DNA of 36,286 nt from IMG/VR virus record IMGVR_UViG_2778261315_000002, one strand, 5' to 3'. The DNA comes from a virus. Its lineage: Duplodnaviria; Heunggongvirae; Uroviricota; Caudoviricetes. The stretch's first letter is position 1, and every line of letters begins with the position of its first letter. The translations under genes and the position numbers were made by a program. This document shows, in pieces, positions 1 to 33,381 of this stretch. The notes beneath the pieces are model-generated. The model made no database searches, had not been told where the DNA came from, and was given only the letters and a program-made list of their open reading frames with translations.

Positions 1-258
1 ATGCAAACCGTTATTTTTGGTCGTCCGGGTTGCCCTTACTGTGTGCGTGCCAAAGATCTGGCCGAGAAATTGAGCAATGAGCGCGATGATTTCCAGTATC
101 AGTATGTAGATATTCGTGCGGAAGGGATCACTAAAGAAGATCTACAACAAAAGGCAGGTAAACCCGTAGAAACCGTGCCGCAGATTTTTGTCGATCAGCA
201 ACATATCGGCGGCTATACCGATTTTGCTGCATGGGTGAAAGAGAATCTGGACGCCTGA
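1..258 (+). CDS. grxA: Glutaredoxin 1
   Basis: 85-aa ORF starting at ATG at position 1; N-terminal CPYC active-site motif (GRPGCPYCVRAK); matches my recollection of E. coli GrxA length and sequence. Confidence 0.9.
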   Translation: MQTVIFGRPGCPYCVRAKDLAEKLSNERDDFQYQYVDIRAEGITKEDLQQKAGKPVETVPQIFVDQQHIGGYTDFAAWVKENLDA

Positions 259-269
259 TCGTCTGACAA

Positions 270-300
270 GCCCTCGCGTTGAGGGCTTTATTGATTTTTT
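270..300. terminator. Intrinsic terminator between convergent grxA and ybjM
   Basis: GC hairpin gccctc-gcgtt-gagggc (270-286) followed by T-rich run tttattgatttttt; sits between two convergent gene ends. Confidence 0.5.
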
Positions 301-665
301 CTGTGCTGTGGTTTAAACAAACTACTGATAAATAAGAAACACAATGCCCCCAGCGCACACCAGAACACCGCACTTAATAACCATGCCAGCTCTTGCCAGA
401 ATGAGCGCGTCGGTGAAAAAAACAGCCGCATAATGAGCATCGAACAGGGTGCCGCCAGCATTGCGCCAAACAGAGGTTTCAGGACTTCTCTACGATGTGA
501 AAAGAAGCTGGCAACTGCACCAGGAAGAATGAAAAATAGCAAACCGATTTCAGGATGCCCGGCAGCCCGAAAAGCGCCTTTCATGTGCGTCGCCAGAAAA
601 AGACACACCACAATGAAGAGGACAAAACAGCAGATTGCCCCCGCCCAACGTTGTTTATGTTTCAC
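288..665 (-). CDS. ybjM: Inner membrane protein YbjM
   Basis: 125-aa hydrophobic multi-TM protein; length and position (convergent with grxA, divergent from ybjL) match the E. coli grxA-ybjM-ybjL neighbourhood. Confidence 0.7.
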   Translation of the reverse strand: MKHKQRWAGAICCFVLFIVVCLFLATHMKGAFRAAGHPEIGLLFFILPGAVASFFSHRREVLKPLFGAMLAAPCSMLIMRLFFSPTRSFWQELAWLLSAVFWCALGALCFLFISSLFKPQHRKNQ

Positions 666-934
666 TCGTTCCTCCTGACACTGCGTCTATCGAACACATT
701 TTTCGCCAGTGTGGCGTTCAGTAAGATAAAGCCGCTTCGCATTCCATGCTAATATAGGCCAACGCAATTCATATAGCCGTTGATACCTAATGTGATTACA
801 CTAGTAAAATATATTGTTACTTTACTATCGTTTAGGTGCGCTGAATGAATCTGCGCCCTGAATTCTGGTAAAAAACATTATCGTAAATTACCATTTCTTT
901 CAACAGCTTACTAGTAAACAAGAAGTTAGCCTCC

Positions 935-2620
935 GTGAATATAAACGTCGCCGAATTGTTAAATGGGAATTACATTCTGTTATTATTTGTGGTCCTCGCG
1001 CTTGGGCTATGTCTCGGGAAATTACGACTTGGTTCGATCCAACTGGGTAATTCCATTGGCGTTTTAGTCGTATCGCTGTTATTAGGCCAACAACATTTCA
1101 GCATTAACACCGACGCGCTTAATCTTGGCTTTATGCTGTTTATTTTCTGCGTCGGGGTCGAAGCCGGACCGAACTTTTTTTCCATTTTTTTTCGCGATGG
1201 GAAAAATTACCTAATGTTAGCACTGGTGATGGTTGGCAGTGCGCTGGTGATCGCCTTAGGGTTAGGTAAGCTGTTTGGCTGGGATATTGGCCTGACGGCC
1301 GGTATGTTAGCTGGCTCTATGACGTCGACACCGGTTCTGGTCGGTGCTGGCGATACACTGCGTCATTCCGGCATGGAAAGCAGGCAGCTCTCACTGGCAC
1401 TGGATAATCTGAGCCTCGGGTATGCCTTAACCTATTTAATCGGTCTGGTGAGTTTGATTGTTGGTGCGCGTTACTTGCCGAAATTGCAGCATCAGGACTT
1501 ACAGACCAGCGCCCAGCAAATCGCCCGCGAACGTGGCCTGGACACTGATGCCAACCGTAAGGTTTATTTACCGGTGATCCGCGCCTACCGCGTCGGCCCG
1601 GAGCTGGTGGCCTGGACCGACGGCAAAAATCTGCGTGAACTGGGTATTTATCGACAAACTGGCTGCTACATTGAACGTATTCGACGTAACGGGATTCTGG
1701 CGAATCCAGACGGTGATGCTGTGCTACAAATGGGAGATGAAATAGCGTTGGTAGGCTATCCCGACGCCCACGCACGACTCGATCCCAGCTTCCGTAACGG
1801 CAAAGAAGTTTTCGATCGTGACCTTCTCGACATGCGTATCGTCACTGAAGAAGTGGTCGTTAAAAACCATAACGCCGTGGGCAAACGTCTCGCACAACTG
1901 AAGTTGACCGATCACGGTTGCTTCCTTAACCGCGTCATTCGTAGCCAGATTGAGATGCCGATAGATGACAACGTCGTGCTTAACAAAGGTGACGTTTTAC
2001 AAGTCAGCGGCGATGCCCGTCGCGTAAAAACCATCGCCGATCGCATCGGCTTTATCTCGATTCACAGCCAGGTCACTGACTTGCTGGCATTCTGCGCCTT
2101 CTTTGTTATTGGGCTGATGATCGGGATGATCACCTTCCAGTTCAGCACATTCAGTTTCGGCATGGGGAACGCTGCCGGGTTGTTATTCGCCGGAATTATG
2201 CTGGGATTTATGCGCGCTAACCACCCGACCTTCGGTTACATTCCGCAGGGTGCATTAAGCATGGTGAAAGAGTTCGGCTTAATGGTGTTTATGGCAGGCG
2301 TTGGTCTGAGCGCCGGTAGCGGTATTAATAACGGCCTGGGCGCGATTGGCGGTCAGATGTTGATTGCCGGATTGATTGTCAGTCTTGTGCCAGTGGTTAT
2401 CTGTTTCTTGTTCGGTGCTTATGTATTGCGAATGAACCGCGCACTGTTGTTCGGCGCAATGATGGGCGCACGCACCTGCGCGCCGGCAATGGAGATCATC
2501 AGTGATACAGCTCGCAGTAACATCCCGGCGCTGGGCTATGCGGGCACCTATGCAATCGCCAACGTCCTGCTGACGCTGGCAGGGACAATCATCGTCATGG
2601 TATGGCCAGGATTAGGATAA
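935..2620 (+). CDS. ybjL: Putative transporter YbjL (AAE-type permease with cytoplasmic regulatory domains)
   Basis: 561-aa ORF with GTG start ([24 protein letters not shown]...); two membrane halves flank a soluble central region; matches E. coli YbjL from memory. Confidence 0.85.
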
Positions 2621-3164: not shown

Positions 3165-4265
3165 TCATTCCATTTCGAAATCATCAATCCTCACTTCAAG
3201 CTCCAGACTGGTCGTAAAACCATTATCCGGGCTGACGGTATGTGTCAGAGTCGTAATGGTCCATTCCGCATCATCTATCGGCTGTTTAAAGCCACTGACT
3301 TTCACTGGCATTTCCGTGTAGAGATCTGCCCGCCCTTCCGCCAGTTGTAGCGAGAATGACGCAACGCCGCGTTGCAGGCGTTCCCACTGCATTTTTGCCG
3401 CTCGTTCGGCGTTGCTCCGGTTGGCATAAGTGCGATTAAGTACCAGCACGTTTTCATCCGTCCCCACCAGGTAATCGCCCTGCTTCGCTTCCGGCTCTTT
3501 CTTCTGCTTCTTGGTCCTGCGCTTACGCTTCACTGTAGTGCTTTCTTTCTTCGCAGGTTCGCGGGTATGCAACCAGCTGGCAATTACGCCCGTGTAGGCT
3601 CCGCGATCCGCCAGGGTAAAGCGGTGACTGTCGCCGTCCTTGCGTGTGATAGTGATCACCGGCAGTGGTTTACCGCTGGCACTTTTACCCTGTCCCTGCC
3701 GGATGAATAACAGATTGCCATTTTTCACCGACGCAATAGCACCGTACTGGCGCGCCAGCCGCATCAGAAAACTGCCGTCACTCTCATTAGTCTGGTCTAT
3801 ATGCTCCACGGGCTTATCCGACAGGTCTTTACCCAGTGCCATCTTCAGTTTGTGACGCGCAGCTATTTCCTTCACCACTTCCCCGACCGTGGTCTTGTGC
3901 CACGATTTTTCACGGCGGGTATTCAGCGTTTCCCGAAAATCAGCACTTCGCGCCCGGATGGTCAGGCGGTCCGGTGCGCCAGTGTGTTCAATCTCGTCCA
4001 CCGTGAATGCCCCTTTCGGGGAAAGCGGCTGCCCCTTCCAGCCCAGCGCCAGCGTAATGACCGCACCACGGCGCGGCAGCACGATTTTTCCGTCGGCGTC
4101 GTCCAGCTCCAGATCAAGCTGGTCAGCTTCAAAGCCCCGGTTATCCGTCAGCGTCAGCCCCATCAGGCGGTTGTCCAGCACAGTGGTGATATCCCTGCCT
4201 TCAATACTGATGCTGAATGCCGGAGTTTTGTTACCTTTGTTAAGCAGTTCAGAGCTGAAATTCAC
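3165..4265 (-). CDS. D: Tail protein D (late control D family)
   Basis: 366 aa; position and size match P2 gpD at the end of the tail operon; sequence resembles P2 gpD from memory. Confidence 0.8.
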   Translation of the reverse strand: MNFSSELLNKGNKTPAFSISIEGRDITTVLDNRLMGLTLTDNRGFEADQLDLELDDADGKIVLPRRGAVITLALGWKGQPLSPKGAFTVDEIEHTGAPDRLTIRARSADFRETLNTRREKSWHKTTVGEVVKEIAARHKLKMALGKDLSDKPVEHIDQTNESDGSFLMRLARQYGAIASVKNGNLLFIRQGQGKSASGKPLPVITITRKDGDSHRFTLADRGAYTGVIASWLHTREPAKKESTTVKRKRRTKKQKKEPEAKQGDYLVGTDENVLVLNRTYANRSNAERAAKMQWERLQRGVASFSLQLAEGRADLYTEMPVKVSGFKQPIDDAEWTITTLTHTVSPDNGFTTSLELEVRIDDFEME

Positions 4266-4747
4266 GACAGCAGCCCTCCCACCGTTTTACTGATATCGCT
4301 TAATGCAGACGTTGCCGTATCCTGCAGATTATTCAGTTGCGTACTGAGATCACCGAACATATCGGACAGGGATTCATCCACCCGTTTGAGCGACAGGGTG
4401 AACTCAATCCGGCGCGGCATACCGTCGCGGAAAAACTCCGTTTTAGTCAGATTCAGTCCCTCAATCACATACATGCCGTAAATCGTCCCACTGCCTTCAA
4501 TCAGGGGCCATGCTTTTCCCTGTTCTGCCATCTGCTCCAGAGCCAGCAACGACAGCCTGCCGCCCGTTATCTCCGGCATAAGAACACCAGAAAGCGTCAG
4601 CATGTCGTTGTCCGGTCCCAGAAACTGCGTGGACGGACGACGGTTTACCCGGCTGTTTGCCGCATGTCGCCAGCTGCGTTGATACTGCAGTTCCTGATAC
4701 GGAACGGTGCGCAGCATAAACACGTACAATCCCAGCACCATCATCAT
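4262..4747 (-). CDS. U: Tail protein U
   Basis: 161 aa, immediately downstream of T with a 4-nt overlap; P2 gpU size class. Confidence 0.75.
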   Translation of the reverse strand: MMMVLGLYVFMLRTVPYQELQYQRSWRHAANSRVNRRPSTQFLGPDNDMLTLSGVLMPEITGGRLSLLALEQMAEQGKAWPLIEGSGTIYGMYVIEGLNLTKTEFFRDGMPRRIEFTLSLKRVDESLSDMFGDLSTQLNNLQDTATSALSDISKTVGGLLS

Positions 4748-7700
4748 GCGTCGTAACCCCCCTGATCGCTGTAGTTACTCCTGGCTTTTGCCTTCAGCCT
4801 GCGTTCACGTTCATCAAGCTGGCGGGCCACCTCCCGCGCAATATCCTGCGCACTTTGTCCAGGCTGCGTCTGGATGATGATCTGCGTCGGTGCCTCAATC
4901 CTGTAAACGGGCGGCACAGTGGCTGCGCGACTCACCATCGCTTCTCCACCTTTCGCGGGAAGTGCCAAAGGGTGCAACGGTGGAAGCTCTGCTGGCGCGG
5001 CAGCAACGCCCATCATTCCGGCAACAACGGCAGCCAGTGCAGCTGTATTTCTCCGGCTGGTCACATTTGCCGGGCCATTAACAATTTCCGGCCCGTTTTC
5101 ACCGACGATGCCAAACTGCCCGCGCGGGATATACCCGCCGCTGTCATACATCCCCGCAAAGCCATATCCCCATGACGGAAAACCACCCGATGGCATCATC
5201 ACTTTACCGTCTGCATTCACCGTCGCAGTTTGCTGACGCGTCACGCTTTCCGGCAGTTTTGCCTTTGCGGCCTCTTTACTGACAATGCCGAGCTTCTCCA
5301 GCAACCAGGAAACGCCGGATTTCAGGGAGTCCAGCGGATGCATGACCATATTCAGCCCTTCCGCCAGTGCCTCCCCGAATCGTCGCCCCATTGCCGCTGC
5401 GCTCTGCAGTTCGGCAGAGGTCGACTTAACGGGCGTCAGCAGATCAGTAAACCAGCCCCACAGCGCCTGTACTTTGTCGCCAATCCACTGAAACACAGGC
5501 TTAAGTGGTTCGAATGCAGCACTGATGGGACCTGCCGCCGCTTTGAATCCTTCCACCACGCCACCGAGAAATGCGGTGATGGGTTGCCAGTATTTCCAGA
5601 CAACCAGCGCCACGCCCGCCAGTGCAGTAACCACAAGACCTATCGGACTGAGCAGAGCACCTAACAGACCAGATATGGCATACAGGGCAACGCGCAGCAT
5701 CACCAGCGGACCAGATGCAAGCACACGAAGCACCGCGCCTGCGGCAGCCAGTCCACCGCGCAGTACCGCCAGAGGATTCATAAACATCACAGCAACAGCA
5801 CGTAAAGCGGATAATCCAGACCGCAATAGTGCAACCGGCGCACCTGCTACAGTTTTCAGGACATTTCCCGTCAGTGATGCCGTACGGCGCAAAGACGACA
5901 ACGGCGCAGTAAGTAAACCCGCTGCATTACCCGCTGAAGCAAGCCCGTGTCGCAGCACTGCCAGTGGTGCGCCTGCCAGCCAGGACAACGCGTTGCTGGT
6001 TCGGGTTACTGCTGCCGTAACGGAAGGTAATGTTTTGATACCCAGCACAGAGAATCCCAGACGGATGACTGCCAGCGGCCCCAGCACTGCAGCCAGCGCC
6101 ACCGCTAAGGTGCCGAGGCCCACGGTAACGGCAGCCACCACAGCGGCTACTTTCATCAGAGTGCCCGTCAGTTCCGGGTTAGCTTCCACCCAGCGACGCA
6201 ACGCCCCCGTGACGCTTTTCACCGTGTACAGAATATCCATCAGCGGCTGGCGCAGCGTTTCGCCCAGGCTACTGAAGGTGTTCTGCGCTCCGGTTTTGAC
6301 CAGCAACCACTGAGCAGAAAGTGAGTCCTTATTGATGTCGGATTCTTTCTGCATGGAGCCGAGCGCATCATTGCCCGCTGTCAGTTTTAACTGACGCTGC
6401 AGTTCCGGCAGGTTGTTTGCCAGTTTCGCCGCGTCATCGCCAAACTCTTTACCAAACAACATGGTCATGGCAGACAGACGCTTATCCTGCGGCAGTGCGT
6501 TCACCTTCTCCAGCACACGCTGGATAGTTCCCATCGCATCCTTCGTCATCTGCTTTTCAATCACTTCAGGATTGAGTTTCAGCAGATTCATCCCTTCAAA
6601 GAAACTCTTGCTTTGCATGGTGGCAATGGACAATTCACGCACCATCGCGTTTGCTGCACTGGCTGCAACCTCTGGCGCAGCACCCAGTGTCAGGAAGGTG
6701 GAACCCAGCGCCGCCGCTTTACGATAATCCAGACGATCAGCCACACTGCCCAGGCGTTGCATGACATCAATGATGTCTGCCCCTTTCGACATGGCGTTAT
6801 CATCCAGATAGTTCAGCGCATCACCGACCTGTTCAATATTGCGGGTAGGGATTTTGTAGAGCTGGGCGATTTTCCCCAGACTTTCTGACAGTTCATCCGC
6901 TGGCAGCTCAAAGGCTGTTGCCGCCTTTGCTGCCGTGCTGGCGAAGGCCAGCAGGTCACGTTTCTGGTCTTCCCAGCTGTCGTCAGGGTTTGCGACGTTC
7001 ATGCGCGCACCACCTTCAACCAGTGCAGCGAAGTCTACCGCACCGTTTTCCATCGGCAACTGTTCACTGGCAGCCTTGATGGCATCCTGCATTTCATAAA
7101 AACGTGCAGTGCGGTTGCCATTATCGTCACGCAGACCATTGACCTGCTTTGCCACACCTTTCATGGCATCTTCCATGCTGGTATAGCTTTTTACTGCCGC
7201 CATCACTGGCGTCCCCATTGCCAGCCCTGCAGCCGTGGTGGTGGCTCCGGCTCCTGCGATGCGATCGCGCACCTCCAGCGAACGGGCATAACTGGCACGC
7301 GCTGCATTCATCCTGCGCTGAGCTTCCCCCAGTCGCTTCAGCCGCGCCTCCTGTTTCGACAGTTCCTGGTTATAACGTGATGTTTCACGGGCTAAACGGG
7401 CAGTTGCTCCCGCATCATCTTTCGCAGAAATTCCCGCCCGGTACAGTTCTGCACGCACAAGCGCCGTTTGCTTCTGCAAATATTTTTGTTGTTCTTCCAG
7501 ACGTTGGACTGCCAGCGTTTGCCGACCTAAAGCTACAAGGTGCCGTTGTGATGGTTGTTCCATCGACTCCAGCTCAGAGCTAAGCAAATTAGCTTTCTGT
7601 CTGGCATAGTTCAGCCTGTCGCCTAACTTCTTGTTATCGGCCTGCAGCTTGCGAAATTTTTCCAGGCTGTTACCCGCCTGATTGAGTTGCTTTAATGCGT

Positions 7701-7821
7701 CACGGGAGGTTCTGATTGCGCCAGCCAGCTCTTTCGAACTGGCCTGTGCAGCACGGAATGGGCGGGTGAGTTTGTCAACCGCATTAAGAATGACCTGCAG
7801 GCGCAGGTTATTATCACTCAT
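4744..7821 (-). CDS. T: Tail tape measure protein
   Basis: 1025-aa Ala/Leu-rich protein with N-terminal coiled-coil and a hydrophobic central region, located between E/E' and U as in P2; the start is overlapped by the E' frame. Confidence 0.85.
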   Translation of the reverse strand: MSDNNLRLQVILNAVDKLTRPFRAAQASSKELAGAIRTSRDALKQLNQAGNSLEKFRKLQADNKKLGDRLNYARQKANLLSSELESMEQPSQRHLVALGRQTLAVQRLEEQQKYLQKQTALVRAELYRAGISAKDDAGATARLARETSRYNQELSKQEARLKRLGEAQRRMNAARASYARSLEVRDRIAGAGATTTAAGLAMGTPVMAAVKSYTSMEDAMKGVAKQVNGLRDDNGNRTARFYEMQDAIKAASEQLPMENGAVDFAALVEGGARMNVANPDDSWEDQKRDLLAFASTAAKAATAFELPADELSESLGKIAQLYKIPTRNIEQVGDALNYLDDNAMSKGADIIDVMQRLGSVADRLDYRKAAALGSTFLTLGAAPEVAASAANAMVRELSIATMQSKSFFEGMNLLKLNPEVIEKQMTKDAMGTIQRVLEKVNALPQDKRLSAMTMLFGKEFGDDAAKLANNLPELQRQLKLTAGNDALGSMQKESDINKDSLSAQWLLVKTGAQNTFSSLGETLRQPLMDILYTVKSVTGALRRWVEANPELTGTLMKVAAVVAAVTVGLGTLAVALAAVLGPLAVIRLGFSVLGIKTLPSVTAAVTRTSNALSWLAGAPLAVLRHGLASAGNAAGLLTAPLSSLRRTASLTGNVLKTVAGAPVALLRSGLSALRAVAVMFMNPLAVLRGGLAAAGAVLRVLASGPLVMLRVALYAISGLLGALLSPIGLVVTALAGVALVVWKYWQPITAFLGGVVEGFKAAAGPISAAFEPLKPVFQWIGDKVQALWGWFTDLLTPVKSTSAELQSAAAMGRRFGEALAEGLNMVMHPLDSLKSGVSWLLEKLGIVSKEAAKAKLPESVTRQQTATVNADGKVMMPSGGFPSWGYGFAGMYDSGGYIPRGQFGIVGENGPEIVNGPANVTSRRNTAALAAVVAGMMGVAAAPAELPPLHPLALPAKGGEAMVSRAATVPPVYRIEAPTQIIIQTQPGQSAQDIAREVARQLDERERRLKAKARSNYSDQGGYDA

Positions 7822-8250
7822 CGTTGGCCCCGCTTCTCTGAATCGCTTTATACCGCCATTCCAGCACTTCGGTCAGCGGCATAACGTCAGTAACGGATGG
7901 CGGCCAGTGAAAGATGGTGGCGATATCAGCCACCAGATCGTCAACCGTCAGGCTGTCGGTAAACCGGCAAGCACCGACTTCTTCAACAAAAAAGTGACAA
8001 TCTCAACCGACATGGCAGTGAGATCTGCCGGGTCCATCTCTGCAATTTCCTGTGCAGTCAGTGCCGGACTGGAGATGCGGGGGATCACGGTCATCATCGC
8101 GTTCACATCCATATCCATAATGGCCTGCAGGCGTGTACCGCGCAGCGCACCGGACTGCGGTTTACGCAGCACAATTTCGGTGATTTCTGTTTTACCGCGC
8201 TTGATGGGGGTATCCAGTTGAATGGTCTTTTCAGTCTGCTTATCACTCAT
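7814..8250 (-). other. E+E' fusion made by programmed -1 ribosomal frameshift (slip site at 7987-7993, minus strand TTTTTTG)
   Basis: In-frame codons ACT-TTT-TTG form an X-XXY-YYZ heptamer. The -1 frame is open for 57 further codons (VEEVGACRFTDSLTVDDLVADIATIFHWPPSVTDVMPLTEVLEWRYKAIQRSGANDE) to a TGA at 7816-7814, overlapping the T start at 7821. Predicted product about 145 aa, close to the P2 E+E' arrangement. Confidence 0.7.
7948..8250 (-). CDS. E: Tail assembly chaperone E
   Basis: 100-aa ORF between FII and T; conserved position; contains the slippery heptamer T-TTT-TTG 13 codons before its stop. Confidence 0.8.
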   Translation of the reverse strand: MSDKQTEKTIQLDTPIKRGKTEITEIVLRKPQSGALRGTRLQAIMDMDVNAMMTVIPRISSPALTAQEIAEMDPADLTAMSVEIVTFLLKKSVLAGLPTA

Positions 8251-8304: not shown

Positions 8305-8820
8305 TCAGAGGCCGAGGGCGTTGCGGTGCGCTTCCATCAGGTCCATACCGTCCACAATTTCCACCATGTTGATAAGGTCCACTTCATAGAGCACCTCACC
8401 ATTGATGGTCAGCTTCGCGTAGCTGTTGGTACTGGTCACTTTGGTGGTGTTGCTTTCGCCCGTCTTCCACTCGCCGGAATCCACTTCTTTGTGACGTCCA
8501 CGCACCACAAGCTCCACGGCCTGCACTTCTCCGGTATCGTCACGCTGGATAGAGCCGGTAAAGCGCAACTGGATGCCATCCACCGTGGCTTTACCCATCT
8601 GCTTAAACAGCAGCAGTTCAGTACCACCAATGGAAAATTCTGTGTCCAGCGCACTGTCATCAAGCCCCAGATCCACATCAACTGCACCAGGCATTCCGCC
8701 GCCGCGATACTTCTCATATTTGCGGGTGAATTTCGGCAGCGTCAGCGACTCTACGATCCCCTGCCAGTTGTTCCCGTCGTTAAACAGGTTCAGATGTTTT
8801 AATTTGCGTGGTAAAGCCAT
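8305..8820 (-). CDS. FII: Tail tube protein FII
   Basis: 171 aa; size and position match P2 gpFII. Confidence 0.85.
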   Translation of the reverse strand: MALPRKLKHLNLFNDGNNWQGIVESLTLPKFTRKYEKYRGGGMPGAVDVDLGLDDSALDTEFSIGGTELLLFKQMGKATVDGIQLRFTGSIQRDDTGEVQAVELVVRGRHKEVDSGEWKTGESNTTKVTSTNSYAKLTINGEVLYEVDLINMVEIVDGMDLMEAHRNALGL

Positions 8821-8829: not shown

Positions 8830-10002
8830 TTACGCGCTGACCTGGCTGGCGAAATTCACCAGGTACTGATCGGTGATGCGCTGGCGCAGCATCAGATTTT
8901 CAAGTGGCGGCACTGGCGTGTAGTCATAGTCGATGGTGAGTTTTCCGGCTTTCAGCGTGTCTTTATCGTTCACCGACTCATCCAGCCAGCAATCACCACC
9001 AATGAGATAGCCCTGACTGACCAGGCTGCGCATTTTGGCGCGGATACCTTCGATAATGTCGCGCGCCAGCGACGGGTTCAGCGGTTTGTCCACCGCCCAC
9101 ATGTGCGCTTCTGCCATTGTGTCCATCAGTACCTGCGCTGTGCGGGTGTAGTTTTCGAAGGCAAAGAGCGGGTCATCACTCAGACAGCGGGAACCCCAGA
9201 AGCGGAAACCGTCCTTGCGCACAAGCGTGGTGACGTCGTTCTGGTTCAGCAGTCCCGCATCTGTTGCCGGGTCCTGCAGATCCCAGAACACATCAGCAGA
9301 AATTCCGGTGACACCGTTCACGCCCACGTTGGACAGGCTTTTGTGCCACCCAGTCTGCTCATCAATTTTGGCGCGCAGACCAAGCGCACGGGCGGTGGCA
9401 TATGCCATTGCTTCGGCGTTCAGCACCGTGTCCCAGCCAGTAAAGTCAGGCCAGATCAGCATCCCTTCGCGCTGGCTAAAGTTTTCACGGTAAGTGATCG
9501 CCTCCTGCACTGTCTTGCAGCCATACGCTGACAGGTAAGCAAACCCACGCAGGCTTTGCGCCACGCTCAGCAATTCAGTCGCAACGGCTTTGTTATCGTG
9601 GCCTGGCACGCCAAGAATGCGCGGTTTAACGCCGAGCTGTGACTGGGCAGATAACAGAGCTTTCATGCCTGTTTTTTTACCTTCAGCAGTCACTGCGCCG
9701 ATGATATTGGTCGTGGTTTCTTCTTCCGTTTCACCCTGCGGCACACGCACAACAACGGTCACGGGTTTTGCCTGGTCAGCGATGGCATCCAGCGAACGGG
9801 CCAGCGTGCCGGACTCACCCGCTTTACCGCTGGCAGTCAGCACATCAGTGATCAGAACAGGTTTGTTAAGAGGAAACATTTTTGCATCGGCATCATCGCC
9901 CGTGCAGACCATGCCCACGATGGCGGTGCTCACCGTGGTAATGGATCGGGTGCCTTCGTTGACTTCAACAACGCGCACCCCGTGGTGGTAATCCTGAGCC
10001 AT
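8830..10002 (-). CDS. FI: Contractile tail sheath protein FI
   Basis: 390 aa ([14 protein letters not shown]...); size and position match P2 gpFI. Confidence 0.85.
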
Positions 10003-10144: not shown

Positions 10145-10711
10145 TCAGGGGGATTCATTGCTCTTATTTGCCGGAAATTTTCTATAAATTGTGGAAACAC
10201 CCACATCAAAAATCAGTGCAATACGCTGTCTTGATTCTCCGGCCTCGAGTAAACGCCCAATCTGTGCCCACTGTTCGGTGGTCAACTTAGGACGGCGTCC
10301 ACCTACTCTGCCTTTGGCACGAGCTGCAGCCAGCCCTGCCCTGGTACGTTCAACTATCAGTTCGCGTTCCATTTCAGCCAGGGCACCCATGACATGAAAA
10401 AAGAAACGGCCCATTGGGGTGCTGGTATCAATACTGTCAGTCAGGCTTCGGAAATTCACGCCTTGCTGACGCAACTCTTCTATCAGCGTAACAAGATGCC
10501 GCATACTGCGCCCCAACCTGTCCAGCTTCCAGACAACCAGCGTGTCTCCTGCCGATAGTGTCCTGAGCAGTTTTTTCAACCCTGGTCTGTCGGACTTAGT
10601 GCCACTGATTTTATCCTCAAAAATCCGCTCACATCCCGCGCAGTTCAGTGCATTACGTTGCAAATCGGTGTTCTGGTCATTTGTTGACACGCGTACATAG
10701 CCAATAAGCAT
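10145..10711 (-). CDS. Site-specific DNA invertase, serine recombinase (Hin/Gin/Cin/Pin family)
   Basis: 188 aa from the ATG at 10711 (MLIGYVRVSTNDQ...DRLGRS...C-terminal HTH); near colinear with Hin/Gin as I recall them; the track ORF extends 15 codons upstream to 10756. Confidence 0.9.
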   Translation of the reverse strand: MLIGYVRVSTNDQNTDLQRNALNCAGCERIFEDKISGTKSDRPGLKKLLRTLSAGDTLVVWKLDRLGRSMRHLVTLIEELRQQGVNFRSLTDSIDTSTPMGRFFFHVMGALAEMERELIVERTRAGLAAARAKGRVGGRRPKLTTEQWAQIGRLLEAGESRQRIALIFDVGVSTIYRKFPANKSNESP

Positions 10712-10766
10712 GAGCATCCCCCTGAATAAAAACCGGGGATGATGCCAGTTAACCATTATCTCTGCA

Positions 10767-10792
10767 TTTTCATAAACGTTGGTTTGGGAGAA
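10767..10792. repeat. Invertase crossover site, invertase-proximal (gix/hix-like, 26 bp)
   Basis: Reverse complement TTCTCCCAAACC-AA-CGTTTATGAAAA matches the site at 12453-12478 at 22 of 26 positions (first 14 identical) and fits the Hin-family site architecture of two imperfect inverted half-sites around a 2-bp core. Confidence 0.75.
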
Positions 10793-11365
10793 GGCTCTGC
10801 ATTACCTGTTGGTGTCCCTGTTCCGTGGCCTTCAGCCACTCCGCCAACAGGCTGGCTGAAATGCAATGGTGCGGCTTTTTCTGCTGAAGAATACCCGGAA
10901 CTGGCAAAGGCTTACCCGACAAATAAATTGCCAGATTTACGTGGTGAGTTTATTCGTGGCTGGGATGACGGGCGAGGGATTGATGAGGGGCGCATACTTC
11001 TCAGTTGTCAGAGTTTTGCTTTCCAGGACCATGCGCACGCTCTGCCAACCGGAGTGGGTAATCCGTCAGACCAGATGGAAAGCGATATCTATGCGGTTTT
11101 CAACGATGTACCAGAAATACCCAGTGCGGCCCTGAGTCCATCGTCGTCAGGAACATCATGGGACGCAACCAGTAGGGCAGACAAGGTAATCCTTTATCGC
11201 AAGGACCTTTCACCAACAGGTAATAACAACGCAATAGCGACCGGATTACCACCATTCAGGACTTACAGGGCATCGACCTCAGACGGTGTTACTCATCCGT
11301 CCGTGTACGCATCTGAAACCCGTCCGCGCAACATTGCATTTAACTACATCGTGAGGGCTGCATAA
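10781..11365 (+). CDS. Alternate tail-fibre C-terminal cassette (promoterless; fuses to the constant part of H after inversion); P2 gpH C-terminus-like
   Basis: Frame open from the crossover site; encodes GLGE-GSALPVGVPVPWPSATPPTGWLKCNGAAF...LPDLRGEFIRG...NIAFNYIVRAA, resembling the P2 gpH C-terminal region. The GLGE junction matches LGLGE in H at its crossover site. The ATG at 10739 in the track is probably not a real start. Confidence 0.7.
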   Translation, partial: GLGEGSALPVGVPVPWPSATPPTGWLKCNGAAFSAEEYPELAKAYPTNKLPDLRGEFIRGWDDGRGIDEGRILLSCQSFAFQDHAHALPTGVGNPSDQMESDIYAVFNDVPEIPSAALSPSSSGTSWDATSRADKVILYRKDLSPTGNNNAIATGLPPFRTYRASTSDGVTHPSVYASETRPRNIAFNYIVRAA

Positions 11366-11970
11366 TGGCGAAAGCAAAATTAAACAGTGCGTTTATTGCC
11401 ACCGTGGCAGGAGAAATCACTGTGTACAACTACCGGGGCGACACCCGCGAATACATATCCTCATCGGTTGAGTATCTGCCTGTGGGGGTGGGTATTCCTG
11501 CCAATTCCTGTACCGATGCGCCCGGCACACATAAGGCTGGTTATGCAATCTGCCGTTCTGCAGATTTTAACTCATGGGAATATGTGCCAGACCATCGCGG
11601 TGAAATTGTCTATGGCATCGAAACGGGGGAATCAAAAGAAATTACTGTGCCGGGGGATTACCCTGAAAATACGACCACTTTTGCCCCATTAACGCCATAC
11701 GATAAATGGGATGGTGAGAAATGGGTAACAGATACCGAGGCACAGCATAGCGCCGCAGTAGATGCAGCAGAAGTACAGCGCCAGTCTCTGATTGATGCTG
11801 CTATGGCTTCCATCAGTCTGATTCAGCTGAAATTGCAGGCCGGACGTAAACTGACGCAGGCAGAAACAACCCGCCTTAACGCTGTGCTGGATTACATTGA
11901 CGCGGTGACGGCAATAGATACCAGCACCGCGCCTGATATTATTTGGCCTGTATTCCCTGAGACTGATTAA
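11365..11970 (+). CDS. Tail fibre assembly chaperone (Tfa / Mu U' type), cognate to the alternate fibre cassette
   Basis: 201 aa, start overlapping the cassette stop (TAATG); C-terminal ...DTSTAPDIIWPVFPE typical of Tfa chaperones; opposite orientation to the tail operon, as expected inside an invertible segment. Confidence 0.7.
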   Translation: MAKAKLNSAFIATVAGEITVYNYRGDTREYISSSVEYLPVGVGIPANSCTDAPGTHKAGYAICRSADFNSWEYVPDHRGEIVYGIETGESKEITVPGDYPENTTTFAPLTPYDKWDGEKWVTDTEAQHSAAVDAAEVQRQSLIDAAMASISLIQLKLQAGRKLTQAETTRLNAVLDYIDAVTAIDTSTAPDIIWPVFPETD

Positions 11971-12199
11971 CCTCAATCAGTATTGGTTCGCCTTTCTCAT
12001 TAATTGTTAGCTCCATGCCCTGAGGAATTTCTGTCATAGTAAAAAACCAGTTGTCCTCCGGTAATTCAATAGCCCCGGTCACGTCATGAAGACCGGGGAT
12101 TACTTCAGTCAAAGTAACTGGATTAAACAGGCGCACAATAAACCCTCCATGAAAAAGCATTTGATGATGGTCTGCCGTCGTACATCTGGCAGCGGGCAT
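11939..12199 (-). CDS. Hypothetical small protein downstream of the current H variable end (possible chaperone for the expressed fibre variant)
   Basis: 86-aa ORF overlapping the 3' end of H, true start uncertain; no recognisable motif; assigned by position only. Confidence 0.3.
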   Translation of the reverse strand: MPAARCTTADHHQMLFHGGFIVRLFNPVTLTEVIPGLHDVTGAIELPEDNWFFTMTEIPQGMELTINEKGEPILIEVNQSQGIQAK

Positions 12200-13514
12200 A
12201 AAAGCCGGTATTTGTTACCTGATCATCCACGATCATTGAAACGTGAACATTATTAGGTGTGCTCTCGTAATCCGTTCTTATTCTTTCTGCGATACTGATA
12301 AAACGTGAAAGTTTAGGCAGTGCAATTGGGTAAACGACTTTAGCCAGTCCATTATCATTAGATCCACCGGTTCCAAATACTTCTATTGCACCATCTGACC
12401 AGCGTACCCATGCACCATTGGCATTAGCTCCTCGCTGAATGACATATCTGGCTTCTCCCAAACCAAGGTATGTGAGAAGACCAGCTACATCCTTTCCACT
12501 CAAATTAGTCAGCGTATTGTCCAGCGGTTGTTTACCTGCCAGTGCATTAAGCATTGTCGTGGCAAAGTTCGGGTCATTCCCCAGTGCCGCCGCCAGTTCG
12601 TTCAGTGTATCCAGTGCCGCAGGTGCAGAACCCACCATTCCTGCAATCGCCGATTTCACAAAAGCCGTAGTGGCAATCTGTGTATTATTGACCGACTGCG
12701 CCGCCGTGGGGGCTGTTGGCGTTCCGGTGAGTGCCGGACTCGACAGCGGCGCTTTCAGTGCCAGCGCATTGTTAATGGTGGTACTGAATTTCGGATCATT
12801 GTTAATGGCTACGGCTATTTCTTTCAGCGTGTCCAGCGTGGCTGGCGCACCATTAATAAGAGCCGTCAGTGCCGCCTGAACAAATGCGGTGGTCGCAAGC
12901 TGCGTGGTATTATTCCCCGCCGCTGGCGTTGGCGCTTTGGGGGTTCCGGTAAACGTTGGACTTTCTTTGGGTGCATACTGTGAATGCGGGTCCGGCGCGG
13001 CAAGATGTTTTGCCATCAGGTCATCCACGTACACCTTCAGCTCCAGTGCCTTGTCATCCACATACTTGCGGGTTGCCAGCACTACAGCAGGGTCGATTTT
13101 CAGGGTGATATTGTCCGTGCTGCTGGTAATCAGCACCATGCGCACGGTCTGGGTACGCCCGCTGCCTTCAGCCAGTTGCGGCTTATAGCTTTCCGGGCAG
13201 TTGCCCACGGCAATCAATGCCCCGGACTCATCAAACAGGCCCACTTCACGTATCCACCAACCGCCCTCGTTTTCAGGGATCACCTGTTCGGCAATAATCT
13301 GGCTGCTGTTCTGCGGGTCGATATAGAGCATATTCAGCGCAGCCCGGCGTTTCTCATTTACCAATGCTGTCTGCTTTGCGTCCGGCGTTGGCAATGTTCC
13401 GCCGCCATCGCCGACCGCCATATGGGTAATTTTTAAAGGCACACCGAGCGCGGCGGCGCTGGCAAGTTTCGCCGCGCCAATATCCGTCAGCAGGGTATAA
13501 AATTTTGTGCTCAT
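12123..13514 (-). CDS. H: Tail fibre protein H (constant N-terminal part plus the currently expressed variable C-terminus)
   Basis: 463 aa; N-terminus MSTKFYTLLTDIGAAKLA...MAVGDGGG resembles P2 gpH; two tandem ~55-aa ATTAFV...LDTL.E.A.A...DP.F.TT..NALA.K.PL repeats; the C-terminus after LGLGE differs from the P2-like cassette. Confidence 0.85.
   Translation of the reverse strand: MSTKFYTLLTDIGAAKLASAAALGVPLKITHMAVGDGGGTLPTPDAKQTALVNEKRRAALNMLYIDPQNSSQIIAEQVIPENEGGWWIREVGLFDESGALIAVGNCPESYKPQLAEGSGRTQTVRMVLITSSTDNITLKIDPAVVLATRKYVDDKALELKVYVDDLMAKHLAAPDPHSQYAPKESPTFTGTPKAPTPAAGNNTTQLATTAFVQAALTALINGAPATLDTLKEIAVAINNDPKFSTTINNALALKAPLSSPALTGTPTAPTAAQSVNNTQIATTAFVKSAIAGMVGSAPAALDTLNELAAALGNDPNFATTMLNALAGKQPLDNTLTNLSGKDVAGLLTYLGLGEARYVIQRGANANGAWVRWSDGAIEVFGTGGSNDNGLAKVVYPIALPKLSRFISIAERIRTDYESTPNNVHVSMIVDDQVTNTGFYARCQMYDGRPSSNAFSWRVYCAPV
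12453..12478. repeat. Invertase crossover site inside tail-fibre gene H (gix/hix-like, 26 bp)
   Basis: TTCTCCCAAACC-AA-GGTATGTGAGAA; inverted partner of 10767-10792; lies in the H reading frame at ...LTYLGLGE|ARYV..., about 110 codons before the H stop. Confidence 0.75.
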
Positions 13515-19620: not shown

Positions 19621-20084
19621 CAGATAAGCTCCACTGTGCAGTGCGGCGCGTCCTGCACCCGGCTGATAGCCCAGCGGGCGTCACGCCACAAATCACCGCT
19701 GGCTTCCGCCAGTTCCTCGCCCCGCTTCACACCGGATGCCGTGGCGTCATAGTCCTGGTAACGTTCGTTGAGCATGGCGCGTGCCCAGCAGTAAACCGCA
19801 TTGAAATAGTGCTGAATGCGCTCACTTTTCCCGTCCAGCTGTTCTGCAGGAACCTCTGCCAGCGAGACATACCCCAGCATCTGCTGGCGTCTGCGAAACT
19901 CATACAGCTCTGCGTTGACCTCCGAAATTGCCGACAGGGCAACCTGCTTTAAACGCGGCTGCGTCACCGTGCCGTCAGTGCGCATCACGCTGCGAAACTC
20001 CGACAGGTCCACATCAGGCCAGAACGGCGTATTTCTGATGATTTCCGCCTGTTCCGGTGCCTGTTCTGGTGCAACAAACTTCAT
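19620..20084 (-). CDS. L: Head completion / stabilisation protein L
   Basis: 154 aa from the ATG at 20084 (AGGAGA Shine-Dalgarno); P2 gpL position; the track ORF extends to a GTG at 20147. Confidence 0.7.
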   Translation of the reverse strand: MKFVAPEQAPEQAEIIRNTPFWPDVDLSEFRSVMRTDGTVTQPRLKQVALSAISEVNAELYEFRRRQQMLGYVSLAEVPAEQLDGKSERIQHYFNAVYCWARAMLNERYQDYDATASGVKRGEELAEASGDLWRDARWAISRVQDAPHCTVELI

Positions 20085-20179
20085 GCTGCTTTCTCCTGAA
20101 ATAGAGGGCGGTGGACGGGATTTTGATGTGGCTATGCCTTTCGCCACCCCGTGCCGCCCGTGCGCGGGGGCACGTTCTG

Positions 20180-20830
20180 TCAGCGGCTGTCATTGCGCAG
20201 TCTGCGCTCCAGCTGCTGTTTGTCTTTTTTCACGCCACAGCGGGGATCGAGCTGTAACGCATGGTTGAGATGGTTAAGGGCAGAAGCCGGATTGCTTTCA
20301 CTCAGGACAGCGCCAATCGCTTTATGCAGACGCGCCCGTGACTGGTCCGGCATATCCAGACCGTCTGTTAGTTCCAGTGTCTGCAGTAACAGATCGGCAT
20401 CAAAGCCGGTGGCGGCAAGCATTGCGCTCTGCGCTGCGTCTGCCATTTCCTCTGCCAGCACGGTCTGCACGTTGCGGTTACCCAGCGGCATCACCCAGCC
20501 ATGACGCAGGGCATGACGCCCGATCTCCAGCGCCCCGGCATAATCTCCGGCATCAATGCGCCACAGCATCACGTACATCAGCACGTCATCCTGTTGAGCG
20601 CCTCCGGCAGCCAGGACACCCTCTGCCCAGGCGGCGTACTTCGGCAGCAGCTCCACCTTGATTTCCGCTTTTTTGACCGTGGACTGAACGCCCTTGAGAC
20701 GGCGGCGGTCTTCCGCCAGTTGCAGCAGCATCAGGTCATAGCCCGACGCGTGGCGAACACTGCCGCCCTCGCGGGCGGCCTGTTCAGCCTGAACGCGCAG
20801 GCGATGCTGCCGTGCGGGACTCAGGCTCAT
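20180..20830 (-). CDS. M: Terminase endonuclease (small) subunit M
   Basis: 216 aa; P2 gpM position and similarity. Confidence 0.8.
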   Translation of the reverse strand: MSLSPARQHRLRVQAEQAAREGGSVRHASGYDLMLLQLAEDRRRLKGVQSTVKKAEIKVELLPKYAAWAEGVLAAGGAQQDDVLMYVMLWRIDAGDYAGALEIGRHALRHGWVMPLGNRNVQTVLAEEMADAAQSAMLAATGFDADLLLQTLELTDGLDMPDQSRARLHKAIGAVLSESNPASALNHLNHALQLDPRCGVKKDKQQLERRLRNDSR

Positions 20831-20833
20831 GGG

Positions 20834-21892: not shown

Positions 21893-21908
21893 CGGGTTTT
21901 GTGCTCCA

Positions 21909-22742: not shown

Positions 22743-22820
22743 GAGCCGTGCTCCGTTAGAAAAAACTTACTGGAGCCTTATGGTTGCGGTGATGGGGGCA
22801 GTGAAACAATGCGCGGTATT

Positions 22821-22838
22821 TGTACCGACAACCACACA
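22821..22838. promoter_or_regulatory. Putative Ogr-binding dyad (TGT-N12-ACA) in the divergent O/P late promoter region
   Basis: TGTACCGACAACCACACA; flanks nearly identical to the FI-upstream dyad; about 87 bp upstream of the O start and 55 bp upstream of the P ATG. Confidence 0.5.
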
Positions 22839-22884
22839 AACCGCAGGCGGGGAAAGCCTTCATTCAAGGCTGTAGGTTTGTGCC

Positions 22885-25676: not shown

Positions 25677-25695
25677 AATCCAAAAAAACATAAAA

Positions 25696-25715: not shown

Positions 25716-25720
25716 CCTTA

Positions 25721-27939: not shown

Positions 27940-27949
27940 AAAAGTCACC

Positions 27950-33374: not shown

Positions 33375-33381
33375 AAGCACC

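What the first reader, a model, noticed from the sequence alone, without database searches (positions are those of the whole stretch)
7814..8250. Conserved programmed -1 frameshift producing the E+E' tail chaperone
The heptamer T-TTT-TTG sits 13 codons before the E stop, and the -1 frame stays open for 57 codons until a TGA that overlaps the start of the tape measure gene T. This reproduces the E/E' (and lambda G/GT-like) arrangement and yields a product that a plain six-frame ORF track does not show.
Basis: partly seen in the sequence, partly recalled or inferred. Interest (0 to 1): 0.35.

Follow-up and report, generated by a model that had tools for sequence, protein, structure and literature searches.

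The report
P2-type tail chaperone E/E+E' frameshift
This is the well-known programmed -1 ribosomal frameshift that lets P2-like phages make two tail-assembly chaperones (E and the longer E+E') from one gene start, found here in a common E. coli prophage; it is real but ordinary, and standard genome annotation misses it.

Summary
On the minus strand, gene E (8250..7948, 100 aa) contains T_TTT_TTG (7993..7987) in the X_XXY_YYZ register. Twelve sense codons and then the E stop follow it. The -1 frame opens only 9 nt before the heptamer and runs 57 codons to TGA 7816..7814, overlapping the tape-measure ATG (7821) by 8 nt. E matches Pfam Phage_TAC_7 and the -1 segment matches Phage_P2_GpE. The fused 145-aa product aligns to P2 gpE+E' without gaps through the junction (48% identity, E 6e-51). 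In a 21-member panel from Escherichia to Burkholderia and Vibrio phages, E' is always in the -1 frame and an in-frame slippery heptamer sits at the same alignment column. All 81 close relatives keep the site and the open frame, and substitutions move from E-frame to -1-frame third positions after the E stop. I found no 3' RNA structure and no ribosome-binding site for an independent E' start. Verdict: a genuine, already known P2-type tail-chaperone frameshift in a Fels-2-like prophage carried by about 18% of complete E. coli genomes. RefSeq splits it into E plus a 39-aa "GpE family" CDS. One small correction: P2's deposited junction is ...F-L-V..., not ...F-F-V....

The parts
7948..8250 (-). 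Gene E, the zero-frame product (100 aa): tail assembly chaperone, short form
   Evidence: ORF listing. Pfam PF10109 Phage_TAC_7, E 3.8e-18, 65.7 bits against a cutoff of 25. PHROG 103 'tail protein', 8e-44. Among 81 close relatives, 25 of 27 variable sites fall on E codon position 3.
7987..7993 (-). Slippery heptamer T_TTT_TTG (X_XXY_YYZ in the E frame): the -1 shift site
   Evidence: Sequence and frame. Same heptamer as the annotated P2 site (PMC3091744). An in-frame X_XXY_YYZ sits at the same alignment column in 21 of 21 panel members. It is retained in all 81 close relatives, one of them as TTTTTTA.
7814..7987 (-). E' segment: the -1 frame read after the shift (57 codons plus TGA 7816..7814). 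G 7987 is read twice.
   Evidence: Translation. Pfam PF06528 Phage_P2_GpE, E 4e-19. PHROG 1756, 1.8e-22. 9 of 13 variable sites in the E'-only part fall on -1-frame codon position 3. Against RE2010 and ST11phi3.1, 9 and 11 codon changes are synonymous and 6 and 4 are not.
7814..8250 (-). E+E' fused product (145 aa: residues 1-88 from the E frame, 89-145 from the -1 frame)
   Evidence: Gapless BLASTP alignment to P2 gpE+E' across the junction: 67/139 identical, E 6e-51. tblastn of the fused product finds 419 phage records, nearly all in two pieces, that is, two frames.
8003..8005 (-). TGA that closes the -1 frame 9 nt 5' of the heptamer, so E' has no long upstream ORF of its own
   Evidence: P2, Arsenophonus and FSL SP-004 have the same 9-nt distance. 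In Shewanella M16-3 and SEN4 the -1 frame opens exactly at the heptamer.
7948..7950 (-). E stop codon (TGA), the 13th codon after the heptamer
7931..7933 (-). Internal GTG that RefSeq/PGAP uses as the start of a separate 39-aa 'GpE family phage tail protein'. Probably not a real start.
   Evidence: Annotation of identical DNA and of CP019275. Anti-SD pairing is only -2.5 kcal/mol, which is background level: 62% of windows do as well. A start codon is present at this column in only 15 of 21 panel members.
4744..7821 (-). Gene T, tail tape measure protein (1025 aa). Its ATG overlaps the E' end by 8 nt.
   Evidence: Pfam PF10145 PhageMin_Tail, 8.7e-19. The 8-nt ATGAGTGA-type overlap is also found in P2, RE2010, ST11phi3.1, ENT90, Shewanella M16-3 and FSL SP-004.
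8305..8820 (-). Gene FII, tail tube protein, immediately upstream of E
   Evidence: Pfam PF04985 Phage_tube, 3e-59.
8830..10002 (-). Gene FI, tail sheath protein, first gene of the operon
   Evidence: Pfam PF04984, PF17482 and PF22671.
3165..4747 (-). Genes U (4262..4747) and D (3165..4265), which complete the FI-FII-E-T-U-D order
   Evidence: Pfam PF06995 Phage_P2_GpU, 9.5e-44, and PF05954 Phage_GPD, 3e-27.

Best explanation
A P2-like (Fels-2 / RE-2010-like) prophage in an E. coli chromosome encodes its tail assembly chaperone pair as P2 does. Most ribosomes translate E (8250..7948) to its TGA and release the 100-aa gpE. A minority slip back one nucleotide on T_TTT_TTG (7993..7987), with tRNA-Phe and tRNA-Leu re-pairing on UUU_UUU. 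They then read 57 more codons in the -1 frame and terminate at TGA 7816..7814, inside the start of the tape-measure gene, giving the 145-aa gpE+E' (...IVTFL|VEEVGAC...). The sequence features, the family membership of both halves, conservation and purifying selection on the -1 frame are shown here. Three points are inferred. First, that the shift is ribosomal: this rests on P2 experiments and on non-homopolymeric heptamers at the same site in relatives. Second, the efficiency: reviews put P2-type sites 2- to 3-fold above lambda's roughly 1:30 (PMC5009743), and my recollection of the primary paper is about 10%. Third, the function: by analogy with lambda gpG/gpGT, the shared E part would bind the tape measure T and the E' extension would recruit the tail tube protein FII, with neither protein present in the finished virion. 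No 3' RNA structure and no upstream SD-like stimulator appear to be involved in this copy. The heptamer alone seems to set the ratio.
For: Anatomy: the heptamer is in the X_XXY_YYZ register, and the -1 frame opens 9 nt before it and runs 57 codons to a stop overlapping the T ATG.

Families: E is PF10109 (3.8e-18) and the -1 segment is PF06528 (4e-19). The neighbours are FI, FII, T, U and D.

P2 precedent: the P2 record has a joined E+E' CDS and a '-1 translational frameshift' site next to the same heptamer. The window's fused product aligns to P2 gpE+E' without gaps over 139 aa across the junction, 48% identity, E 6e-51.

Panel of 21 spanning Escherichia, Salmonella, Klebsiella, Erwinia, Arsenophonus, Burkholderia, Ralstonia, Pseudomonas, Shewanella, Mannheimia and Vibrio phages:
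- E' is in the -1 frame in 21 of 21.
- An in-frame X_XXY_YYZ sits at the same alignment column in 21 of 21: 15 TTTTTTG, 2 TTTTTTC, 1 TTTTTTT, 1 GGGAAAG, 1 CCCTTTC, 1 AAATTTT.
- The codon that supplies heptamer base 1 encodes 8 different amino acids, yet its third base always equals X.
- The -1 frame never opens 3' of the heptamer. It has no stops after the heptamer, against 85 stops in total in the E bodies.

Close relatives: all 81 (41 distinct sequences) keep a slippery heptamer and an open E'. Variable sites are 25 of 27 at E codon position 3 before the heptamer (p = 2e-10) and 9 of 13 at -1-frame position 3 after the E stop (p = 0.009).

No independent start: the GTG at 7933 has background-level anti-SD pairing, -2.5 kcal/mol against -7 to -11 for FI, FII, T, U and D.

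Literature: P2 makes the 91-aa E and the 142-aa E+E' by a -1 shift at TTTTTTG, conserved in P2-like phages and without a downstream hairpin (PMC3091744). P2 E' lacks an RBS and overlaps T (PMC3931495). The lambda G/GT mechanism and the higher efficiency in P2 are reviewed in PMC5009743.
Against: Nothing here measures frameshifting in this prophage, so the product is inferred. The heptamer by itself is common: 20 copies in the window against 10.6 expected. A GTG or ATG lies at the 'PGAP start' column in 15 of 21 relatives, so some independent initiation cannot be formally excluded. A run of six T could also allow some transcriptional slippage, which would yield nearly the same protein. This copy lacks the GAGG(T) motif found 6-7 nt upstream of the heptamer in all 81 IMG/VR relatives, so its efficiency could differ from theirs. 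The single-sequence structure model was too poor (pLDDT 50) to support the two-domain picture.
Confidence: 0.9

Rival explanations
1. E' is a separate small gene. A 39-aa 'GpE family phage tail protein' is initiated independently at GTG 7933, as RefSeq/PGAP annotates, and no frameshift is needed.
For: RefSeq annotates exactly this on identical DNA and on CP019275. The 39-aa sequence is deposited on about 1,000 contigs. A Met or Val codon occupies this column in 15 of 21 panel members. Pfam PF06528 covers only this 37-aa stretch.
Against: There is no Shine-Dalgarno: -2.5 kcal/mol is background level. Six of 21 relatives have no start codon at that column (Glu, Ala, Ile, Trp, Glu, Tyr). The 18 codons between the heptamer and the GTG are open in the -1 frame in all 21. 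They are conserved as protein (FLVAExG...L(T/S)VDD) and align to P2 gpE+E' without gaps. PHROG 1756 matches E' from residue 3, upstream of the GTG. This model gives no reason for a slippery heptamer to be conserved at one column, or for the -1 frame to open at or just before it. Papers citing Christie 2002 report that P2 E' lacks an RBS and is made as an extension of E (PMC3931495, PMC3091744).
Confidence: 0.04
2. The same E+E' protein is produced mainly by transcriptional slippage. RNA polymerase adds one extra U in the T6 run, and ordinary translation of the U7 mRNA then gives ...VTFF-VEEV....
For: The site is a homopolymeric T6 run. A P2-type 142-aa protein with the F-F junction exists as a plain ORF in one E. 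coli assembly (QTN08932.1). That shows only that the fused frame tolerates it.
Against: At the homologous column, relatives use G_GGA_AAG, C_CCT_TTC and A_AAT_TTT. These fit tandem tRNA slippage but are poor substrates for polymerase slippage. What is conserved is the reading-frame register X_XXY_YYZ, including the wobble base of the preceding codon across 8 different amino acids. A polymerase mechanism would not require a register. From my own knowledge, efficient slippage by E. coli RNA polymerase generally needs runs longer than six. The P2 record and the reviews classify it as a translational frameshift (PMC5009743).
Confidence: 0.05
3. Coincidence: the heptamer and the open -1 frame are chance features and no extended product is made or needed.
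For: TTTTTTG occurs 20 times in the window, and other sites also have long -1 frames.
Against: The -1 segment matches a curated family at 4e-19. It is under purifying selection in the -1 frame. It is conserved with its heptamer in 21 of 21 diverse and 81 of 81 close relatives. It is homologous to the P2 product.
Confidence: 0.01

Closest known systems
Bacteriophage P2 gpE / gpE+E' (Christie et al. 2002, J Bacteriol 184:6522; GenBank AF063097, AAD03291/AAD03292; UniProt O64312)
   Same: Same heptamer, TTTTTTG, in the same register. Same gene order, FI-FII-E(E')-T-U-D. The E' extension is 57 codons in both. Both have the same 8-nt overlap of the E' stop with the T ATG. In both, the -1 frame opens 9 nt before the heptamer. 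The fused products are 48% identical over 139 aa with no gaps. Same Pfam families. No significant 3' structure in either (PMC3091744).
   Different: E is 100 aa here against 91 in P2. The zero-frame tail after the heptamer is 12 sense codons against 6, so the dual-coded overlap is 55 nt against 37. Sequence identity is only 48%. P2 has a GGTGG motif just upstream of the site, which this copy lacks.
Felsduovirus (Salmonella phage Fels-2 / RE-2010) and Klebsiella P2-like prophages
   Same: These are the closest phage relatives. The fused product is 86% identical to RE-2010 and 96-97% identical to Klebsiella phages Kp48xx. Lengths match RE-2010 exactly (100-aa E, 145-aa fusion), with the heptamer at the same position.
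   Different: These relatives carry GAGGT 6 nt upstream of the heptamer. The window has GAGAT (Ile84 in place of Val84). Their records also annotate two separate 'tail protein' CDSs rather than a join.
Phage lambda gpG / gpGT tail assembly chaperones (Levin et al. 1993; Xu, Hendrix and Duda 2004, 2013, 2014)
   Same: Same logic and position: two overlapping ORFs between the major tail (tube) gene and the tape-measure gene, a -1 shift on an X_XXY_YYZ heptamer near the end of the first ORF, and a fixed low ratio of long to short product (PMC5009743). Mannheimia phage 1127AP1, a homologue of this E/E' pair, even uses lambda's heptamer G_GGA_AAG.
   Different: There is no detectable sequence similarity: no Pfam hit to lambda-type chaperone families. 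The tail here is contractile, whereas lambda's is non-contractile. The efficiency is reported to be 2- to 3-fold higher in P2-type phages (PMC5009743).
E. coli dnaX -1 frameshift (A_AAA_AAG with an upstream SD-like element and a 3' hairpin)
   Same: A bacterial -1 tandem slip on an X_XXY_YYZ heptamer that yields two products in a fixed ratio.
   Different: This site has no significant 3' hairpin (z = -1.2 and -0.6) and no upstream SD-like element.

Membership tests
P2 gpE / gpE+E' tail assembly chaperone pair | The upstream ORF belongs to the E-type tail assembly chaperone family (Pfam PF10109 Phage_TAC_7) | tested here: met
   E 3.8e-18, 65.7 bits against a cutoff of 25, covering profile positions 1-78 of 79. 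PHROG 103, 8e-44.
P2 gpE / gpE+E' tail assembly chaperone pair | The -1 frame extension belongs to Pfam PF06528 Phage_P2_GpE | tested here: met
   E 4e-19, 68.2 bits against a cutoff of 23, covering the full profile, 1-37 of 37.
P2 gpE / gpE+E' tail assembly chaperone pair | Located between the tail tube gene (FII) and the tape-measure gene (T) in an FI-FII-E-T-U-D operon | tested here: met
   Pfam assignments for all six genes, all on the minus strand and in that order.
P2 gpE / gpE+E' tail assembly chaperone pair | A slippery heptamer (T_TTT_TTG in P2) in the zero-frame register near the 3' end of E | tested here: met
   AC[T TTT TTG] at 7993..7987, 13 codons before the E stop. Identical to the P2 site.
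P2 gpE / gpE+E' tail assembly chaperone pair | E' lacks its own ribosome-binding site, and its ORF reaches back only to the slip site | tested here: met
   The -1 frame opens 9 nt before the heptamer. The only candidate start, GTG 7933, has background-level anti-SD pairing of -2.5 kcal/mol.
P2 gpE / gpE+E' tail assembly chaperone pair | The conceptual fused product is homologous to P2 gpE+E' continuously across the junction | tested here: met
   BLASTP: 67/139 identical, 0 gaps, E 6e-51. The P2 sequence used is exactly AAD03292.1 / O64312.
P2 gpE / gpE+E' tail assembly chaperone pair | The frameshifted protein is actually made (about 10% in P2, from my recollection of the primary paper) and is essential for tail assembly | not testable with these tools
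   This needs mass spectrometry, a reporter assay and genetics. Indirect support comes from purifying selection on the -1 frame and universal conservation.
Conserved tail-assembly-chaperone frameshift of long-tailed dsDNA phages (lambda G/GT type, Xu et al. 2004) | Two overlapping ORFs between the major tail protein gene and the tape-measure gene, joined by a programmed shift near the end of the first | tested here: met
   Conserved in 21 of 21 panel genomes.
Conserved tail-assembly-chaperone frameshift of long-tailed dsDNA phages (lambda G/GT type, Xu et al. 2004) | Sequence homology to lambda gpG/gpT themselves | tested here: not met
   The only Pfam hits at E <= 0.01 are PF10109 and PF06528. 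The literature also states there is no sequence similarity (PMC3931495). So this is the same kind of system but a different protein family.
Stimulated bacterial -1 frameshift sites (dnaX / IS911 type) | A 3' stem-loop or pseudoknot 5-9 nt downstream of the heptamer | tested here: not met
   A hairpin 8 nt downstream is predicted (-13.5 kcal/mol) but is no better than shuffled sequence: z = -0.62 for 52 nt and -1.20 for 87 nt. The same absence is reported for P2, KS5, KS14 and KL3 (PMC3091744).
Stimulated bacterial -1 frameshift sites (dnaX / IS911 type) | An upstream Shine-Dalgarno-like element | tested here: not met
   No SD-like tetramer in the 24 nt upstream in the window. One is present in 11 of 21 panel members at variable spacing and in all 81 IMG/VR relatives.

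The most novel reading that the evidence does not exclude
The only non-textbook reading left open concerns frameshift efficiency. At this structure-less T_TTT_TTG site, efficiency might be tuned by an upstream SD-like GAGG(T) element 6-7 nt 5' of the heptamer. That element is present in all 81 IMG/VR relatives and in RE-2010, ST11phi3.1 and a Ralstonia phage. This window's allele (A at 8001, GAGGTT to GAGATT, Val84Ile) has lost it. If the element matters, this allele is a natural variant with an altered E : E+E' ratio. Independently, the junction residue (F-L or F-F) is unmeasured for this lineage.
Probability: 0.08. Interest if true: 0.3.

Novelty: already known. Interest (0 to 1): 0.08.

Why it matters
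Biologically it adds nothing new. The E/E+E' frameshift was demonstrated in P2 in 2002 and has repeatedly been described as conserved among P2-like phages and analogous to lambda G/GT.

Its practical value is for annotation. The identical DNA in RefSeq, and similar DNA in about 1,000 of 5,426 complete E. coli genomes, is annotated as E plus a free-standing 39-aa "GpE family" protein. That 39-aa protein probably does not exist as such. The real 145-aa product is absent from protein databases. Proteomics searches, pangenome gene counts and phage-engineering designs that rely on those annotations will therefore miss or misdescribe an essential tail-assembly protein.

Tried and rejected
1. Downstream stimulatory RNA structure: folding the 52 and 87 nt 3' of the heptamer gave z = -0.62 and -1.20. 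Rejected as a feature.

2. Upstream SD-like stimulator: absent in the window and inconsistent across the panel. Kept only as a side note.

3. Heptamer frequency as evidence: TTTTTTG is merely 2-fold enriched in the window (20 against 10.6 expected; 1 of 100 shuffles reaches 20). It is not informative by itself.

4. IMG/VR relatives for diversity: all 80 loci were 99% identical. They were useful only for the substitution-phase test, so diversity had to come from GenBank phages.

5. Primary paper (PMC135442): not held in the library. It is cited through PMC3091744, PMC3931495 and PMC5009743.

6. NCBIfam: no model matches E or the fusion.

7. PDB sequence search with the fused product: no hit at E <= 1.

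8. AlphaFold2 single-sequence model of E+E': mean pLDDT 50.1. It was too poor for a fold search, so none was run.

9. The large homologue searches (search for homologous proteins, the search of protein representatives) were deliberately not spent on an already well-explained feature.

10. Independent initiation at GTG 7933, transcriptional slippage and chance were considered and ranked low (see rivals).
Full report
**1. What is in the sequence**

The finding's coordinates, 7814..8250, lie on the minus strand. Reading that strand, an ATG at 8250 opens a 100-codon ORF ending at TGA 7950..7948.
- Inside it, TTTTTTG occupies 7993..7987, and the zero-frame codons are ACT TTT TTG. The heptamer is therefore in the X_XXY_YYZ register needed for tandem -1 slippage.
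- Twelve sense codons follow, and the stop is the thirteenth.
- Re-reading G 7987 in the -1 frame gives 57 sense codons (VEEVGACRFTDSLTVDDLVADIATIFHWPPSVTDVMPLTEVLEWRYKAIQRSGANDE) and then TGA 7816..7814.
- The next gene starts at ATG 7821, so the two overlap by 8 nt (ATGAGTGA).
- The -1 frame is closed by TGA 8005..8003, only 9 nt 5' of the heptamer. It has 6 stops in the 86 codons of the E body and none in the 57 codons after the heptamer.

**2. Is it more than chance?**

The heptamer alone is not. It occurs 20 times in the window against 10.6 expected. Among those 20 sites, only 7993 combines a long upstream zero frame (101 codons), a short zero-frame tail (12 codons) and a long -1 frame (57 codons). 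The stronger evidence is homology and conservation, set out below.

**3. What the pieces are**

- The 100-aa ORF matches Pfam PF10109 (Phage_TAC_7, "tail assembly chaperone proteins E, or 41 or 14") at 3.8e-18.
- The -1 segment matches PF06528 (Phage_P2_GpE) at 4e-19.
- The downstream 1025-aa ORF is a tape-measure protein (PF10145).
- Upstream lie the tail tube gene FII (PF04985, 3e-59) and the sheath gene FI.
- Downstream of T lie gpU (PF06995) and gpD (PF05954).

This is the P2 FI-FII-E-T-U-D late operon. The window as a whole is a P2-like prophage. It has replication gene A and an integrase, with the host genes ybjM and a ybjL-like permease at its left edge.

**4. Comparison with P2**

The P2 GenBank record (AF063097) annotates gene E, a two-piece joined CDS "E+E'" ([quoted passage not shown]), and a misc_feature "site of -1 translational frameshift" directly after the G of the same TTTTTTG.

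I built the conceptual fusion for the window: zero frame through TTG, then the G re-read. It aligns to P2 gpE+E' over 139 residues with no gap, 48% identity, E = 6e-51. The alignment runs straight through the junction (FLVEEVGA against FLVAELGA). An exact-sequence look-up confirmed that my P2 construct is the deposited protein AAD03292.1 / NP_046780.1 / UniProt O64312.

The two loci share finer details too: a 57-codon extension, the -1 frame opening 9 nt before the heptamer, and the 8-nt E'/T overlap. They also differ. E is 100 aa here against 91 in P2, and the zero-frame tail is 12 codons against 6.

**5. Conservation**

tblastn of the fused product against 50,697 phage records found 419 records, almost all as two pieces, that is, in two reading frames. 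I fetched 19 diverse examples plus P2.
- In 21 of 21, counting the window, E' lies in the -1 frame relative to E.
- In 21 of 21 an in-frame X_XXY_YYZ heptamer sits at the same alignment column: 15 TTTTTTG, 2 TTTTTTC, 1 TTTTTTT, G_GGA_AAG in a Mannheimia phage (lambda's heptamer), C_CCT_TTC in Klebsiella phage Kp4846-1 and A_AAT_TTT in Escherichia phage 503458.
- The codon that supplies heptamer base 1 encodes eight different amino acids across the panel, yet its third base always equals X. This is selection at the nucleotide level for the slippery pattern, not for the protein.
- The -1 frame never opens 3' of the heptamer. In the lower-GC genomes it opens 0-54 nt before it.
- The panel has 85 -1-frame stops in the E bodies and none after the heptamers.

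Among 81 close relatives (41 distinct sequences), all keep a slippery heptamer (one as TTTTTTA) and an intact E'. Their variable sites show the frame switch directly. In the E-only part, 25 of 27 fall on E codon position 3 (p = 2e-10). After the E stop, 9 of 13 fall on codon position 3 of the -1 frame (p = 0.009). Against RE-2010 and ST11phi3.1, 9 and 11 of the changed E' codons are synonymous and 6 and 4 are not.

**6. Mechanism**

The best-supported mechanism is ribosomal tandem -1 slippage with no accessory stimulator.
- The 52 and 87 nt downstream fold no better than shuffled sequence (z = -0.62 and -1.20). This matches the reported absence of hairpins in P2, KS5, KS14 and KL3 (PMC3091744).
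- The window has no upstream SD-like element.
- That the shift is ribosomal rather than transcriptional is inferred from the non-homopolymeric heptamers at the homologous site, from the conserved reading-frame register, and from the P2 literature (PMC5009743).
- The function is inferred by homology and from the lambda G/GT work summarised in PMC5009743: a chaperone pair in which the shared E part binds the tape measure and the E' part recruits the tube protein, with neither in the virion. It was not tested here.
- A single-sequence AlphaFold model was unusable (pLDDT 50), and no PDB relative exists by sequence.

**7. Rivals**

- **Independent initiation.** RefSeq/PGAP annotates the identical DNA (NZ_CP019243) as "phage tail assembly protein" plus a separate 39-aa "GpE family phage tail protein" starting at GTG 7933. 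That start has background-level anti-SD pairing: -2.5 kcal/mol, matched or beaten by 62% of windows, against -7 to -11 for FI, FII, T, U and D. A start codon is missing at that column in 6 of 21 relatives. The 18 codons upstream of it are open, conserved as protein and homologous to P2. PHROG 1756 matches E' from residue 3. I rate independent initiation as the sole route at about 0.04.
- **Transcriptional slippage** on T6 would give an F-F junction. I rate it at about 0.05 as the main route.
- **Chance** is excluded.

**8.

The proposed junction peptide ...VTFF-VEEVGAC... assumes Phe-Phe. The P2 deposited protein has Phe-Leu (...GFLVAELG...), and PMC3091744 states that the shift occurs after the terminal G. 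The equivalent here is ...VTFL-VEEVGAC.... Both are mechanistically possible (tandem slip, or P-site-only slip), and mass spectrometry would decide.

**9. Novelty and value**

The phenomenon is already known: P2 itself (Christie et al. 2002, cited in PMC3091744, PMC3931495 and PMC5009743), the general phage rule (Xu et al. 2004), and explicit statements that it is conserved among P2-like phages. This instance sits in a prophage whose 701-nt E region is found at 80% identity or more in 1,002 of 5,426 complete E. coli genomes. The only residual value is for annotation. The 145-aa product is absent, in both junction versions, from a collection of about 15 billion proteins, while its two halves are deposited separately on hundreds of contigs. 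The Pfam PF06528 model begins exactly at the probably false GTG start. Interest is low.

Noticed in passing
window 10145..13514 (invertase 10145..10756 minus; inverted repeats 10767-10793 and 12452-12478): This looks like a Gin/Cin/Hin-type invertible host-range segment. A serine DNA invertase (PF00239 plus HTH_7) lies next to 27-nt inverted repeats (85% complementary) that bracket 1.66 kb. The segment holds an alternative tail-fibre C-terminus (10739..11365 plus strand, Collar domain) and a fibre-assembly chaperone (11365..11970 plus strand, Caudo_TAP). The currently connected fibre gene is 12123..13514 on the minus strand. In the close relative CP019275 the invertase is annotated as frameshifted.
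   Followed up: partly
window 7814..7933 minus strand; L102 1968..2087: RefSeq/PGAP systematically annotates the E' segment as a free-standing 39-aa 'GpE family phage tail protein' from an internal GTG that has no Shine-Dalgarno. The Pfam PF06528 model (37 positions) starts exactly at that residue, so the family definition seems to have inherited the mis-annotation.
   Followed up: yes
window 8001 (minus strand; E nucleotide 250, codon 84): The window has A (ATT, Ile84) where all 81 IMG/VR close relatives have G (GTT, Val). The change turns GAGGTT into GAGATT and removes an SD-like GAGG(T) motif 6-7 nt 5' of the slippery heptamer. RE-2010, ST11phi3.1 and a Ralstonia phage also carry that motif. 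Any effect on frameshift efficiency is unknown.
   Followed up: partly
public protein QTN08932.1 (found; not in the window): A P2-type E+E' with a Phe-Phe junction exists as an ordinary 142-aa ORF in one E. coli chromosome assembly. This implies a T7 run there, either a real +1 insertion or a homopolymer sequencing error. If real, that prophage would make only the long form.
   Followed up: no
L095 (Mannheimia phage 1127AP1), L099 (Klebsiella phage Kp4846-1), L100 (Escherichia phage 503458): Homologues of the same E/E' pair use different heptamers at the same alignment column: G_GGA_AAG (identical to lambda G/GT), C_CCT_TTC and A_AAT_TTT. The slip site has been replaced repeatedly while the register was kept.
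   Followed up: partly
window 1..2620 and 35156..36286: The prophage borders show at the window edges. Host genes ybjM (288..665 minus) and a ybjL-like Asp-Al_Ex/TrkA_C permease (935..2620 plus) lie at the left. A tyrosine integrase ORF (35156..36286 plus) runs to the right end of the window. The attachment sites were not mapped.
   Followed up: no
window 20000..36286: 17 of the 20 TTTTTTG copies in the window lie in the 20.6-36.2 kb portion. This probably reflects a more AT-rich early/regulatory region. None of them has the anatomy of a frameshift site.
   Followed up: partly
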